The notes under the pieces are model-generated. The model was not told the origin of the DNA. It did no database searches and saw nothing but the letters and a program-made list of their open reading frames with translations. DNA of 64,000 nt from an uncultured Candidatus Saccharibacteria bacterium (GTDB lineage: Bacteria > Patescibacteriota > JAQUNI01). The position numbers and the translations under genes are program-made. Every line of letters starts with the position of its first letter. Position 1 is the first letter of the stretch. Location of the stretch: contig CAZKRD010000001.1 in assembly GCA_964555185.1 (NCBI GenBank), forward strand, positions 239,272 to 303,271, read 5' to 3'. This document shows positions 8,276 to 10,360 of this stretch, one piece after another.

Positions 8276-8417
8276 TTGTTTACACCTCCTTTCTATTATT
8301 ATTTTTTTGATTTAATCAAGTAGCTTGCTGTAACCCCCTAAAATAAAAAGGGGGGACTTATCCCTCCAAATCAAGTCTTGGTCTAGCTTTTGGAAGCTAG
8401 AGTAAGCTACTTTTTAT

Positions 8418-8452
8418 TTTAAAACCCCTGGAAAAAATACAGGGGTTCGACT
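8418..8452 (-). terminator. GC hairpin (aacccctg...caggggtt) followed on the minus strand by TTTTAAAATAAAAAG, inside the 5' leader region
   Basis: Two further hairpins lie at 8326-8360 (cccccT...Aggggg) and 8378-8400 (ctagctt..aagctag). Possible attenuator or the end of an upstream sRNA. Confidence 0.3.
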
Positions 8453-8563
8453 TCAAGAATTTAATTGTAAATATAAAAATGGCCAGATTGTGAGATGAGA
8501 TTTTGTTAGATATTTTTCTTTTAATATTTTCATGCAGCTTTTTGTATTTTTTCTCGATAATCC

Positions 8564-8593
8564 ATTATAGCAAATATCCTTATTTTCCGTCAA
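8564..8593 (-). promoter_or_regulatory. sigma70-type promoter, minus strand (TTGACG-N18-TATAAT)
   Basis: Reverse complement of 8564-8593 reads TTGACGgaaaataaggatatttgcTATAAT. Confidence 0.5.
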
Positions 8594-8799
8594 GGGTTTT
8601 GCGGTTTTGTTCATAGAAAGGAGAGGTGGGGGGCACAGGCTGATCAAAATGGCTTGTGCCCTCCCGGAGGTAAGAAATGTAAAAGTTTTTAAGTCTCCTT
8701 TCAGTGCAATCCCTTCTTATTGCCGAAAAGGATTGATGTTTTCTGGCTATCGCCGGAAACCACCCAACTTTCATTCTTCCTCACTCTATCTTCACTTAT

Positions 8800-8828
8800 A
8801 TTATATTTCTCAATAATAATTTTGTCAA
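8800..8828 (-). promoter_or_regulatory. consensus sigma70 promoter, minus strand (TTGACA-N17-TATAAT)
   Basis: Reverse complement reads TTGACAaaattattattgagaaaTATAAT. Confidence 0.6.
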
Positions 8829-9151
8829 AGGTTTTGCAGGCTTTGAAAATAAAAAATCCCGCAGATTCTTTTTAGAGAAAGATAGCGGGTTTGAGTAAAA
8901 GGCACAGGGAGCAAGCGCCTGAAATTGCTCCCTGTAATGTTGACGTCTGGATAGACAATGTAAGACCAGGCTTTTTGGAAGGAAACTTGGTGAGGTTAAC
9001 AGATGATCTACTTCTGTTGTTTTTGCTATGGCAGATTTATTGGATGGTCAGAAGCAGACCATTTACTTTTTTTGGCATCACCTCGCTTTTTTGGTGACCA
9101 AACGGATGAGGAGCGGCAATACAGCAGAAACCATTGCCCCACCTCATCTAT

Positions 9152-9180
9152 ATTATATTTCCCAATTCTAATTTTGTCAA
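9152..9180 (-). promoter_or_regulatory. consensus sigma70 promoter, minus strand (TTGACA-N17-TATAAT)
   Basis: Reverse complement reads TTGACAaaattagaattgggaaaTATAAT; identical cassette at 9687-9715. Confidence 0.6.
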
Positions 9181-9359
9181 AATAAAAACCCCTTTGTCTT
9201 CAATTTTGATTTGTGACCATGATACAGCATTTTCTTTGAAATTGAAAATGGCCCAAAAGGAAGACATAAGGGGGCGGCTTTTCACTTAATTTAGATAAAT
9301 TGGGAGTATATTCGGCAATAATCTGATTGACTCCAATTAAGCTACAAGCCTTTATTGTT

Positions 9360-9404
9360 CATAGAACCACCCTACCTTTCAGTGAACTGATTTATCCGCA
9401 CTAC
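9360..9404. repeat. 45-nt block catagaaccaccctacctttcagtgaactgatttatccgcactac, copy 1 of 2 (identical copy at 9605-9649)
   Basis: Exact duplicate found by eye. Each copy sits just downstream, on the minus strand, of one of the promoter cassettes. Confidence 0.7.
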
Positions 9405-9410
9405 TATTAT

Positions 9411-9439
9411 AGTATATTTCTCTAATTTCATTTTGTCAA
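9411..9439 (-). promoter_or_regulatory. sigma70 promoter, minus strand (TTGACA-N17-TATACT)
   Basis: Reverse complement reads TTGACAaaatgaaattagagaaaTATACT. The conserved 45-nt block starts at the predicted +1. Confidence 0.5.
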
Positions 9440-9604
9440 AATAAAAACCCCTTTGTCTCAAATCGCTGGTATTACGCTTTGCGTGATATTCAGATATGAG
9501 ATATAAAGGGGCGGCTTTTGTAGCTTGGCTTATAGTGAGATAGTAAGAGCGAGTCAGCCGATATCCTGACTCATTGAGAACCAAGTCAAAAGCCCTGCTT
9601 ATTT

Positions 9605-9649
9605 CATAGAACCACCCTACCTTTCAGTGAACTGATTTATCCGCACTAC
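9605..9649. repeat. 45-nt block, copy 2 (identical to 9360-9404)
   Basis: Exact duplicate. Confidence 0.7.
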
Positions 9650-9686
9650 ATCTTTCTCTTTTTTTCCCTTTCTGCTTGACACCTAT

Positions 9687-9715
9687 ATTATATTTCCCAA
9701 TTCTAATTTTGTCAA
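9687..9715 (-). promoter_or_regulatory. consensus sigma70 promoter, minus strand (duplicate of the 9152-9180 cassette)
   Basis: Reverse complement reads TTGACAaaattagaattgggaaaTATAAT. Confidence 0.6.
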
Positions 9716-9746
9716 AGTATTTAGGCGTGAGTTTAAAACTCTCTTG

Positions 9747-9894
9747 GTCATTGTGAGCGACCGCAGGGAGCGAAGCCACCCTATGGGTGGTCACCCGCAG
9801 GGTGACAATCTCGTGAAAGTCTTATTTGACTCTTAGGAATGAGATTGCTTCGTCACTCTCCCTCGATGAACTCGGGATCGCTCCTCGCAATGAC
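9747..9894. repeat. REP/MITE-like palindromic element (gtcattgYgag...ctcctcgcaatgac termini)
   Basis: Inverted termini gtcattgtgagcgac... / ...gatcgctcctcgcaatgac with internal hairpins. Same family as 22740, 28380 and 63742. Confidence 0.6.
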
Positions 9895-9917
9895 ATTTGG
9901 GTTTTGATTATGTATTT

Positions 9918-9978
9918 AAAATAAAAACCCGTCTATGCCCCAGATAGATCAAGGGGCTAAAACGGGCTTGTCTTTTTT
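9918..9978. terminator. bidirectional rho-independent terminator
   Basis: cccgtctatgcccc-agatagatcaa-ggggctaaaacggg hairpin flanked by aaaataaaaa on the 5' side and cttgtctttttt on the 3' side. It works as a hairpin plus U-tract on either strand. Confidence 0.55.
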
Positions 9979-10190
9979 AGTTCTTTAGTGAAGTACGCTG
10001 TCCGGTTGTACAGAACCGCCAGACAGTTTGTTATGTTTCATCACTTTTGTATATAATATAACATAGTGCAAAATCAATATCAATCGGGAAGTCTCACTCT
10101 GCTAATTATATAAGAACTGAAAAAGAGCAAAGTTATTGTTGCATCGCATCACCTCTTCTTTTTAGGAATCCAAGGTCAAAATTGCAACTT
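9925..10190 (-). ncRNA. candidate small RNA: transcript from the 10197-10224 promoter to the 9928-9966 terminator, about 260 nt
   Basis: Bounded by a consensus promoter and an intrinsic terminator on the same strand. Several internal hairpins (e.g. ctgtccggttgtacagaaccgccagacag). Contains only a 15-codon and a 3-codon ORF. Confidence 0.35.
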
Positions 10191-10196
10191 ATGTTT

Positions 10197-10224
10197 ATTA
10201 TATTTTCTTTATCTTTTTTGTCAA
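10197..10224 (-). promoter_or_regulatory. consensus sigma70 promoter, minus strand (TTGACA-N16-TATAAT)
   Basis: Reverse complement reads TTGACAaaaaagataaagaaaaTATAAT. Confidence 0.55.
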
Positions 10225-10360
10225 ATATAAAACACCCTTTTTTGGTTCAAACGGTTTTTTGGTAAAAACCGCCTGAATTTTGAGGGTGTTTTGTTTTTGT
10301 TTTTGTTTATTTATTCTCGAGGTTCCTCGACTAAGAGAACCTTTTGGAATAATTAGTTTT

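What the first reader, a model, noticed from the sequence alone, without database searches (positions are those of the whole stretch)
8280..10360. 2-kb ORF-free island with six near-consensus sigma70 promoters on the minus strand, duplicated 45-nt blocks and GC hairpins: a tandem sRNA or regulatory-RNA array
The minus strand carries TTGACA-N16/17-TATAAT at 8800-8828, 9152-9180, 9687-9715 (identical to 9152-9180) and 10197-10224, plus TTGACA-N17-TATACT at 9411-9439 and TTGACG-N18-TATAAT at 8564-8593. An identical 45-nt block (9360-9404 = 9605-9649) lies at or near the predicted +1 of two promoters. Downstream of each promoter are GC hairpins (e.g. gatgagg...cctcatc at about 9100, cagggagcaa...ttgctccctg at about 8910) and terminator-like motifs. 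Only short, implausible ORFs are present. Such density of consensus promoters is far above what ordinary intergenic DNA shows. The two most promoter-proximal cassettes (8564-8593 and 8800-8828) face the SipW operon, separated from 7127-8275 by a three-hairpin 5' leader.
Basis: seen in the sequence. Interest (0 to 1): 0.68.

Follow-up and report, generated by a model that had tools for sequence, protein, structure and literature searches.

The report
Tandem orphan small-RNA-like transcription units
A 2-kb gene-free stretch in a tiny (about 0.7 Mb) Patescibacteria genome holds five head-to-tail mini transcription units, each with a near-perfect promoter and a ribosome-binding site plus start codon and four with a terminator, but none has a believable gene, so they probably make abundant small RNAs whose function is unknown.

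Summary
Six promoters matching at least 11 of 12 consensus positions lie on the minus strand in 8564-10224. Shuffles give 0.057, and the other 62 kb holds five. The identical block is 47 nt, not 45.

The region is a chain of five mini transcription units (U1-U5) followed by the promoter and leader of the downstream secreted-protein operon. U1-U4 end in strong intrinsic terminators that abut the next -35. U5 has no terminator and runs into the operon promoter.

The ORFs behind them are 3, 2, 6, 18 and 64 codons and have no homologues.

U2, U3 and the start of U5 are paralogues. P2-P5 are one promoter family, so the array grew by local duplication.

Rfam, phage, plasmid, viral and metagenome searches found nothing. 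Syntenic relatives carry the same kind of unit in the same spacer (three, one or none), but with unrelated sequences.

The best reading is lineage-specific small RNAs, possibly descended from decayed small-gene 5' modules. Expression and function are untested. Interest is moderate.

The parts
10222..10300 (-). Intrinsic terminator of the upstream CAP/Ig-domain gene (10361-11830). Its U-tail runs into the -35 of P1.
   Evidence: Fold energy -29 kcal/mol. A related terminator (acaccctt..agggtgtttt) is conserved in relatives L012, L013, L092, L093, L094 and L097.
10197..10224 (-). P1: TTGACA-N16-TATAAT, 12 of 12 matches.
9918..10190 (-). U1, a predicted RNA of about 270 nt. It has SD GAGGUGAU plus an ATG at 10144 (ORF MQQ*). 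A weaker nested promoter lies at 10055-10083. The terminator stem is 9925-9969 with a UUUUUAUUUU tail.
   Evidence: MFE -76.8 kcal/mol, z = -4.91 with 0 of 200 shuffles as good. Terminator -24.3 kcal/mol. SD-ATG. Nested promoter.
9747..9894 (.). Inverted pair of a short dispersed palindromic repeat (GTCATTGYGAGSRRCG...GAAGCAATCTC), REP-like. It lies between the U1 terminator and P2.
   Evidence: Sequence. Other copies at 22739-22776, 28379-28431 and 63738-63800. Relatives have other REP-like palindromes at the same position.
9687..9715 (-). P2: TTGACA-N17-TATAAT, 12 of 12 matches. It is identical to P4, spacer included.
9443..9680 (-). U2, a predicted RNA of about 238 nt. It has a purine-rich 5' extension, then the 47-nt block (9603-9649) with an ATG at 9607 (ORF MK*). 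The middle hairpin is 9513-9594 and the terminator 9447-9512.
9411..9439 (-). P3: TTGACA-N17-TATACT, 11 of 12 matches.
9184..9404 (-). U3, a predicted RNA of about 221 nt and a paralogue of U2. The 47-nt block (9358-9404) starts at the predicted +1. The ATG is at 9362 (ORF MNNKGL*). The middle hairpin is 9276-9350 and the terminator 9189-9273.
9152..9180 (-). P4: TTGACA-N17-TATAAT, 12 of 12 matches.
8845..9145 (-). U4, a predicted RNA of about 300 nt. A 5' hairpin encloses SD GAGGUGGGG and the ATG at 9134 (18-codon ORF). Further hairpins follow, including 8907-8936. The terminator stem is 8858-8889.
   Evidence: MFE -85.9 kcal/mol, z = -4.55 with 0 of 100 shuffles as good. Terminator. SD-ATG.
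8800..8828 (-). P5: TTGACA-N17-TATAAT, 12 of 12 matches. It belongs to the same promoter family as P2, P3 and P4.
8594..8793 (-). U5, with no terminator. It has an SD plus an ATG at 8774 (64-codon ORF that runs over P6 and has no homologues). Its 5' region shares UGAAAG-U-GGGUGGUU with the U2/U3 block. Its 3' CCACCUCUCCUUUCUAU is complementary to the operon SD. It probably reads into the operon.
   Evidence: Fold z = -3.4. No U-tract after the last hairpin. ORF has no homologues. Complementarity of 11 nt, not significant window-wide. Shared motif read from the sequence.
8564..8593 (-). P6: TTGACG-N18-TATAAT with an extended-10 TG. This is the proximal promoter of the secreted-protein/SipW-type operon.
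   Evidence: Homologous operons in L003, L008/9, L013 and L092 also have a near-consensus promoter 150-390 nt upstream.
8276..8557 (-). Leader of about 280 nt for gene 7127-8275, with three to four hairpins. The terminator-like hairpin GGAGGGAUAAGUCCCCCCUUUUUAUUUU (8339-8367) and the strong SD AAAGGAGGUG are conserved in L013 and L092.
   Evidence: SD strength relative to other genes.

Best explanation
The spacer is a head-to-tail chain of five mini transcription units, followed by the promoter and leader of the downstream secreted-protein operon. That operon encodes a 382-aa signal-peptide protein, a SipW-like S24/S26 peptidase and an LTD protein.

Anatomy of a unit. Each unit has a near-consensus sigma-70 promoter. 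A Shine-Dalgarno-plus-AUG pair follows 11-73 nt later, with a 2-64 codon ORF that has no homologue, then hairpins. In U1-U4 a strong intrinsic terminator follows, and its UUUUUAUUUU tail abuts the next -35.

Most likely products. These are abundant, separately terminated RNAs of 220-300 nt that act as RNAs, not proteins.

Origin. U2, U3 and the 5' part of U5 are paralogues. P2-P5 are one promoter family. The array therefore grew by local duplication and recombination of a promoter-plus-5' module. That module holds a TGCGGATAA box, an SD-like GAAAGGUAGGGUGG and an AUG, and it resembles the translation-initiation region of the neighbouring operon.

U5 and P5. U5 has no terminator, so P5 most likely acts as a distal second promoter of the operon.

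Shown: the promoters, terminators, SD-AUG pairs, paralogy, absence of coding signal, and the presence of analogous units in the same spacer of relatives.

Inferred: transcription itself. It is also inferred that the conserved single-stranded 5' module of U2/U3 is the working part, as a seed or ribosome-binding mimic. In the nascent RNA its GGGUGGUU can pair with AGCCGCCC, next to the terminator, as an alternative structure.
For: 1. Promoter density: six sites versus 0.057 expected. In the rest of the window such promoters precede a tRNA, the L10/L12 operon and a few genes.
2. Terminators: four hairpins of -11 to -25 kcal/mol with U-tails lie directly before the next -35.
3. SD-ATG pairs: exactly one SD-N3-10-ATG per unit on the transcribed strand. 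That is 5 observed versus 0.72 in shuffles, and only 2 of 500 shuffles reach 5.
4. No coding signal:
   - Stop codons occur in all frames of the 47-nt block (read).
   - No Pfam hits.
   - No homologue of the 64-aa ORF.
   - No tblastn conservation in relatives.
5. Folding: U1, U4 and U5 fold far better than shuffles, with z = -4.9, -4.6 and -3.4.
6. Paralogy of U2/U3:
   - 47 of 47 and 29 of 29 identical blocks sit in a background of about 60% identity.
   - In the two separately predicted MFE folds, a three-helix middle hairpin is kept with two double changes, CUUGG/CCAAG versus CUUAA/UUAAG.
7. Promoter family P2-P5, spacer included.
8. Relatives:
   - L092 has three promoter-to-terminator units in the syntenic spacer; one is a 300-nt RNA with z = -5.1 and one carries an SD and a 42-codon ORF.
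   - L013 has one 100-nt unit with z = -3.9.
   - L099 has a promoter, SD, 12-codon ORF and terminator upstream of the homologous gene.
Against: - No transcript data are available.
- No unit is conserved in sequence between genomes, so there is no cross-species covariation. The structural support for U2/U3 rests on two paralogues only.
- U2 and U3 do not fold better than shuffles, with z about -1.0 and -0.8.
- Perfectly identical 33-, 47- and 29-nt tracts with sharp edges could come from gene conversion rather than selection.
- No target complementarity stands out. Block-versus-gene-start duplex energies are no better than shuffles. The 11-nt U5/SD match is reached by 20 of 200 shuffles for some gene.
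- The SD-ATG pairs suggest an mRNA-like origin or function.
Confidence: 0.45

Rival explanations
1. Relics. The units are decaying copies of the promoter-5'UTR-SD-start module of secreted-protein gene cassettes. They were left behind by duplication, deletion and cassette turnover in a recombination hot spot. They may still be transcribed but have no specific function.
For: - Every unit keeps an SD-ATG but the ORFs are only 2-64 codons.
- The U2/U3 module resembles the operon's initiation region, GAAAGG..GGUG..AUGAA (read).
- The module also contains a one-mismatch copy of the TGTGGATAA box. In relatives that box sits just upstream of the operon -35.
- The spacer content differs completely between relatives. 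It includes REP-like palindromes, an IS-like ORF and 23S-IVS-protein genes.
- In L092 the conserved leader and SD drive a first gene that is not homologous to the window's.
- Assemblies often break in this spacer.
Against: - Four perfect and two one-off consensus promoters, plus four intact strong terminators, are hard to keep without selection in a 0.7-Mb genome.
- U1 and U4 are much more structured than shuffles.
- The U2/U3 hairpin keeps its pairing through double changes.
Confidence: 0.27
2. Composite regulatory leader. The whole 2 kb is the control region of the operon. Stacked promoters are each followed by a leader mini-ORF and an attenuator terminator, and read-through is tuned by ribosomes or a factor.
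For: - All units are co-oriented with the operon, here and in L092, L013 and L099.
- Each has an SD plus a short ORF upstream of a terminator.
- U5 has no terminator.
- The proximal leader has a conserved terminator-like hairpin.
- An alternative GGGUGGUU:AGCCGCCC pairing competes with the U2/U3 terminator in truncated folds.
Against: - Each terminator is followed at once by a new consensus promoter, so read-through adds little.
- The terminators have long stems and strong U-tracts.
- ORFs of 2-3 codons are too short for classical attenuation.
- The units are not conserved where the leader hairpin is.
Confidence: 0.13
3. Small-protein or type I toxin-antitoxin array. The units encode tiny peptides, for example the 18-aa MVSAVLPLLIRLVTKKAR in U4 or the 64-aa ORF in U5. 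Their translation is masked by 5' hairpins.
For: - SD-ATG in each unit.
- In U4 the SD and ATG are enclosed in a stable 5' hairpin.
- From my own knowledge, tandem intergenic repeats with strong promoters are typical of E. coli Ldr and Ibs type I loci.
Against: - Three of the five ORFs are only 2-6 codons.
- No ORF on the promoter strand has a membrane-length hydrophobic stretch together with an ATG and SD.
- No Pfam hits and no homologues.
- No convincing antisense promoters. The only plus-strand site is a 10-of-12 match at 10028-10057.
Confidence: 0.08
4. Promoter-carrying MITE or other mobile cassette copied into the spacer.
For: P2 and P4 are identical over 33 nt, and P3 and P5 are similar.
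Against: - No terminal inverted repeats or target duplications around the cassettes.
- No copy elsewhere in the 64-kb window or in the 2.9 kb beyond it.
- No match in phage, plasmid or viral collections.
- The copies are strictly tandem and in register with the terminators.
Confidence: 0.03

Closest known systems
Tandem paralogous trans-acting sRNA genes (E. coli OmrA/OmrB, Agrobacterium AbcR1/AbcR2, Listeria LhrC1-5); comparison from my own knowledge
   Same: These are adjacent, co-oriented genes, each with its own promoter and Rho-independent terminator. The paralogues share a conserved 5' (seed) region and terminator and have a variable middle, as U2 and U3 do.
   Different: The units here are 220-300 nt, longer than most such sRNAs. 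Each carries an SD-AUG. No targets were found. The units are not conserved in the nearest relatives, and no chaperone context is known in Patescibacteria.
Leader-peptide transcription attenuators
   Same: Both have a promoter, an SD, a short ORF, then alternative hairpins and an intrinsic terminator.
   Different: No structural gene follows U1-U4; the next element is another consensus promoter. Three of the ORFs are only 2-6 codons.
Type I toxin-antitoxin repeat arrays (E. coli LDR/ldr-rdl, QUAD/ibs-sib); from my own knowledge
   Same: Both are tandem units of 250-500 bp in an ORF-free island, with strong promoters and structured mRNAs whose SD is masked.
   Different: There is no credible hydrophobic toxin ORF, no antisense RNA gene, and no sequence relation.
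TIGR arrays of Patescibacteria and phages (PMC12045711)
   Same: Both are tandem non-coding arrays found in CPR genomes.
   Different: TIGR units are about 36 nt, regularly repeated, transcribed as one precursor and adjacent to a Nop-domain Tas gene. Here the units are 235-509 bp with their own promoters, and no such gene is nearby.

Membership tests
Any Rfam 15 family | Covariance-model score at or above the family's gathering threshold | tested here: not met
   No hit in 8200-10420 at the gathering threshold. The best E-value was 0.1, a 27-nt viral frameshift model. Nothing was found in the spacers of relatives either.
Tandem paralogous base-pairing sRNAs (OmrA/B type) | Own promoter and Rho-independent terminator for each gene | tested here: met
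   Consensus promoters. Terminators for U1-U4. These are predictions only.
Tandem paralogous base-pairing sRNAs (OmrA/B type) | Conserved seed region shared by the paralogues, with a variable body | tested here: met
   The 47-nt 5' block is identical in U2 and U3 while the body is about 60% identical. This holds for U2/U3 only.
Tandem paralogous base-pairing sRNAs (OmrA/B type) | Complementarity of the seed to mRNA targets | tested here: inconclusive
   Duplex energies against 55 gene starts are no better than for a shuffled block. The longest matches fall within the shuffle range. Only 64 kb of the genome was available.
Tandem paralogous base-pairing sRNAs (OmrA/B type) | Conservation of the sRNA in related species | tested here: not met
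   The syntenic spacers of L013, L092, L093, L094 and L097 share only the CAP-gene terminator, REP-like elements and the leader hairpin.
Tandem paralogous base-pairing sRNAs (OmrA/B type) | Detected transcript of the predicted size | not testable with these tools
   No transcriptome data are reachable.
MITE / mobile promoter cassette | Terminal inverted repeats, target-site duplication, dispersed copies | tested here: not met
   No flanking inverted repeats. Copies occur only in tandem within the spacer. No hits in phages, plasmids or viral contigs.
Type I toxin-antitoxin | Small hydrophobic toxin ORF with SD, plus an overlapping antisense RNA gene | tested here: not met
   Hydrophobicity scan of all ORFs of at least 14 codons. 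No near-consensus plus-strand promoter.
Leader-peptide attenuator | SD plus a short ORF upstream of a terminator | tested here: met
   One SD-ATG per unit. Terminators.
Leader-peptide attenuator | Regulated structural gene directly downstream of the terminator | tested here: not met
   The U1-U4 terminators are followed by the next promoter, not by a gene.
TIGR / CRISPR-type guide arrays | Short regular repeats with spacers, next to an effector gene | tested here: not met
   The repeat search finds no short regular array. Neighbouring genes encode CAP/Ig, S24/S26 peptidase, LTD and PCMT domains. TIGR features were taken from PMC12045711.

The most novel reading that the evidence does not exclude
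The units could be a lineage-specific, fast-turning-over battery of very highly expressed RNAs. Each presents a strong ribosome-binding site with a 2-6 codon or otherwise meaningless ORF. They would be SD/TIR mimics or 'minigenes' that modulate ribosome or tRNA availability for the few SD-dependent genes, above all the adjacent secreted-fibre operon, in an ultra-small episymbiont genome. Alternatively they could be fossils of an expression site at which secreted-protein cassettes are exchanged behind a conserved promoter, leader and SD.
Probability: 0.12. Interest if true: 0.7.

Novelty: new member of a known kind. Interest (0 to 1): 0.45.

Why it matters
Patescibacteria genomes are tiny and densely coding, and almost nothing is known about their regulatory RNAs. 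This genome devotes 2 kb to five units, each with a near-perfect promoter and a ribosome-binding site and four with a clean terminator. That suggests either strongly selected RNA products or an unusually active recombination hot spot. The hot spot sits in front of a secreted-protein operon that is probably involved in surface or host contact. Either outcome would be informative, and the predicted transcript ends make it directly testable by 5'/3'-end mapping in metatranscriptomes.

Tried and rejected
Database searches that found nothing:
- Rfam found nothing in the window, the region or the relatives.
- Exact-pattern scans found no hits: a 20-mer from the block in the metagenome collection and two 18-mers in viral contigs.
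- blastn of the whole region found only one AT-rich chance match of 56 nt in phages and nothing in plasmids.

Comparison with related loci:
- Operon homologues at 46-60% identity (L003-L011, L098) have no comparable arrays; L099 has a single such unit.
- A suspected homology between the U2/U3 block and the 5'UTR/SD of the 42-codon ORF in L092 did not beat shuffles, with 71 of 300 shuffles at least as good. It is kept only as a lead.

Target prediction:
- Duplex folding and longest-complement searches gave no signal above shuffles.

Coding tests:
- Pfam, the 1.84-billion representative search, tblastn and a hydrophobicity scan were all negative.

Other ideas set aside:
- The T-box idea came from AGGGUGGU in the block. 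It was dropped because there is no Rfam T-box signal, the element lies at the 5' end, and no gene follows.
- A TIGR/CRISPR-like array was rejected on unit size and gene context.
- I could not score U2/U3 middle-hairpin covariation with the pair-counting tool, because MAFFT shifts the 3' arms by four columns. That evidence rests on the two separate MFE folds.
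Full report
SOURCE AND CONTEXT. The window is part of a 707-kb metagenomic scaffold, ENA ERZ23486238, BAEC19-1_SAMN10404973. Its closest species-level relatives are Patescibacteria assemblies: L013, labelled Candidatus Doudnabacteria, and L012. 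Their NTP-transferase proteins are 77-78% identical to the window's.

The finding lies between two minus-strand genes. Upstream is a CAP/Ig-domain membrane protein (10361-11830). Downstream is an operon that starts with a 382-aa signal-peptide protein (7127-8275). That gene is followed by a 160-aa protein, a SipW-like S24/S26 peptidase and an LTD-domain protein.

THE OBSERVATION. Six sites matching at least 11 of 12 positions in 2081 bp compare with a mean of 0.057 (maximum 2) in 1000 dinucleotide shuffles. The other 61.9 kb holds five such sites. Those five precede tRNA-Lys, the L10/L12 operon, two small genes and a second ORF-poor island.

The identical block is 47 nt: 9358-9404 equals 9603-9649. 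P2 and P4 are identical from -35 to -10, spacer included. The quoted hairpins are present.

ANATOMY. Read on the minus strand, the region runs in this order:
- the CAP-gene terminator;
- P1 and U1 (about 270 nt), ending in a terminator;
- an inverted pair of a REP-like dispersed repeat (9747-9894);
- P2 and U2 (about 238 nt), ending in a terminator;
- P3 and U3 (about 221 nt), ending in a terminator;
- P4 and U4 (about 300 nt), ending in a terminator;
- P5 and U5 (about 200 nt), with no terminator;
- P6, followed by a 280-nt leader and then the gene.

The four terminators fold at -24.3, -24.4, -24.8 and -11.3 kcal/mol. All end in a UUUUUAUUUU-type tail that runs into or close to the next -35. 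U1, U4 and U5 fold much better than shuffles, with z = -4.91, -4.55 and -3.40. U2, U3 and the leader do not.

Each unit carries exactly one Shine-Dalgarno-N3-10-ATG on the transcribed strand, 11-73 nt after its predicted start. The ATGs are at 10144, 9607, 9362, 9134 and 8774. That is 5 observed against 0.72 in shuffles, and only 2 of 500 shuffles reach 5. This stands out because only 10 of 55 genes in the window have an SD core of 5 nt or more. The operon's first gene has the strongest, at 8 nt.

The ORFs behind these starts are 3, 2, 6, 18 and 64 codons. None has support as a protein:
- none of the ORFs in the region has a Pfam match;
- the 64-aa ORF has no homologue among 1.84 billion representatives, only one marginal hit inside a 380-aa protein;
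- nothing is conserved by tblastn in relatives;
- no ORF on the promoter strand looks like a membrane toxin;
- the 47-nt block has stop codons in all three forward frames (read).

PARALOGY AND ORIGIN. U2 and U3 align end to end. They share the 47-nt 5' block (47 of 47), AAAAGCCGCCCC, and 29 identical bases covering the terminator 3' arm and the next -35. The rest is about 60% identical.

Their middle hairpins fold separately into the same three-helix stack. The second helix differs by two double changes, CUUGGUU/AGCCAAG versus CUUAAUU/AAUUAAG. This rests on two sequences only. It could not be scored with the pair-counting tool, because the automatic alignment shifts the 3' arm.

The 5' part of U5 shares UGAAAG-U-GGGUGGUU and UUCUAUGAACAA with the block. 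P2-P5 share the sequence TTGACAAAAT..A..T.G.GAAATATAATATA. The array therefore grew by local duplication and recombination of a promoter-plus-5' module.

The sharp-edged, perfectly identical tracts fit either strong constraint or gene conversion. I cannot separate the two.

The block also contains TGCGGATAA, one mismatch from TGTGGATAA. That box is over-represented in the window: 30 sites with at most one mismatch, against 13 +/- 4 expected. It also sits directly upstream of the operon -35 in L013, L093/L012, L094 and L099. Together with the SD-like GAAAGGUAGGGUGG and the AUG, the block looks like the 5' control module of a gene.

RELATIVES. The spacer is syntenic but its content is not conserved.
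- L013 has the CAP terminator, a consensus promoter, one two-hairpin RNA of about 100 nt (z = -3.9, with a C-rich loop CCCCUCCC), a REP-like palindrome, and the operon promoter and leader.
- L092 has a REP-like element followed by three units. The first is a promoter, SD, 42-codon ORF and terminator. The second is an RNA of about 300 nt with z = -5.1. The third is a unit of about 125 nt behind a perfect promoter. The operon promoter follows.
- L012/L093, L094 and L097 show only a REP-like or IS-like sequence before the contig ends.
- L099 has the box, a promoter, an SD, a 12-codon ORF and a terminator 600 nt upstream of the homologous gene.

Pairwise blastn of the spacers shows that only three things are shared: the CAP terminator, REP-like elements, and the leader hairpin GGAGGGAUAAGUCCCCCCUUUUU with the SD. 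In L092 that conserved leader drives a first gene that is not homologous to the window's.

The kind of element therefore recurs in this spacer across the clade, always co-oriented with the operon. The sequences, however, turn over quickly.

SEARCHES ELSEWHERE. The following were all negative:
- Rfam;
- exact-pattern scans of the metagenome collection and of viral contigs;
- blastn against phages and plasmids.

A second metagenome scan with the CAP protein was lost to a low-complexity pattern. More distant homologues of the operon have no comparable arrays.

INTERPRETATION. The simplest reading that fits everything is an array of separately transcribed, terminated small RNAs that arose by duplication. 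P5/U5 would act as a distal operon promoter. I give this 0.45.

The SD-ATG pairs, the gene-like 5' module and the turnover of the spacer make a relic reading a serious rival (0.27). In that reading the units are decayed small-gene or expression-module copies. The two readings can both be true, as origin and present role.

A composite attenuator-type leader is less likely (0.13), because each terminator is strong and is followed at once by a fresh consensus promoter. In truncated U2/U3 folds, GGGUGGUU does pair with AGCCGCCC next to the terminator. That is the one hint of a switch.

Small proteins or type I toxins (0.08) and a MITE (0.03) have little support.

U5's CCACCUCUCCUUUCUAU is complementary to the operon's SD region over 11 nt. 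However, 20 of 200 shuffles do as well against some gene, and the match is not seen in L092. It stays a lead.

VERDICT. The interpretation as a tandem sRNA or regulatory-RNA array is partly supported by anatomy. It is unproven for expression, conservation and function. It is best filed as a set of new, lineage-specific members of a known kind, namely orphan bacterial small-RNA genes in tandem. The unusual twist is that every unit carries a ribosome-binding site and a start codon.

Noticed in passing
window 22303-23196 (+); L013 20500-20900: This is a second ORF-poor island. A perfect promoter at 22400-22428 is followed by about 300 nt of strong hairpins. The promoter and the first hairpin (AAAUCCGRUUGGAGCAGG...YUGCUCCAA) are conserved in L013 at the syntenic place, at 70-75% identity. 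There is no Rfam hit. It is probably a conserved structured RNA upstream of mraZ.
   Followed up: partly
window 22957-23114 (+), also 33991, 36844, 40816; L013 6082, L093 7783, L094 5664, L099 13: The box TGTGGATAA is the reverse complement of a DnaA box and also resembles GTGG-type MraZ repeats. It is over-represented in the window, with 30 sites at one mismatch or fewer against 13 expected. Four copies cluster just downstream of the mraZ promoter. In four relatives CTGTGGATAACTTTTTGAC forms the upstream edge of the secreted-protein operon promoter. In the window a one-mismatch copy lies inside the U2/U3 block.
   Followed up: partly
window 9747-9894, 22739-22776, 28379-28431, 63738-63800: A dispersed short palindromic repeat (GTCATTGCGAGGAGCG...GAAGCAATCTC), REP-like. 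Relatives carry other palindromes of the same style (gtcattcccgcgaaagcgggaatcc; ttccccctgataagggggag) at the same spacer position. Several assemblies break there.
   Followed up: partly
window 8339-8367 (-); L013 5751-5779; L092 about 4915-4945: The terminator-like leader hairpin AAGGAGGGAUAAGUCCCCCCUUUUU and the strong SD are conserved in three genomes. In L092 they precede a first gene (391 aa) that is not homologous to the window's 382-aa protein. This suggests a conserved expression module with exchangeable secreted-protein genes.
   Followed up: partly
L013 5367-5717 and about 20030-20430; L093 4750-5109: Genes for 23S-rRNA-intervening-sequence-type four-helix proteins are inserted into the operon leader and into the second island of L013. 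They are flanked by 'aaaattaaaaatta' repeats and look like small mobile insertions.
   Followed up: no
L092 3942-4070: A small ORF with a good SD, MSIRKIMELGKDELVIIIINQPIEDKPAQSCCCYSYSAFSAD (Cys-rich C-terminus), sits in its own promoter-to-terminator unit. The RNA is not structured (z = 0.1), so this one may be a real small protein.
   Followed up: no
window 8449-8529 (-); L013 about 5885-5990 (-): The proximal operon leaders contain an ATG ORF with no SD, of 26 codons in the window and 35 in L013. Each ends at or just before the first terminator-like hairpin. This is a possible leader-peptide attenuator layout, or it may be chance in AT-rich sequence.
   Followed up: no
L002 (Logan SRR8482192 contig), ends at window 9177: An independent assembly of the same organism breaks exactly inside P4. 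Its first 33 nt also match P2. The 33-nt identical promoters therefore act as an assembly-breaking repeat.
   Followed up: yes
window 3307-3660 (+): A near-consensus promoter (TTGACA-N18-TAGAAT) is followed by an SD (AAAGGAG) and a small ORF starting at 3391 (MPRCIKIPPGHFGVAHYF...). It was not examined further.
   Followed up: no
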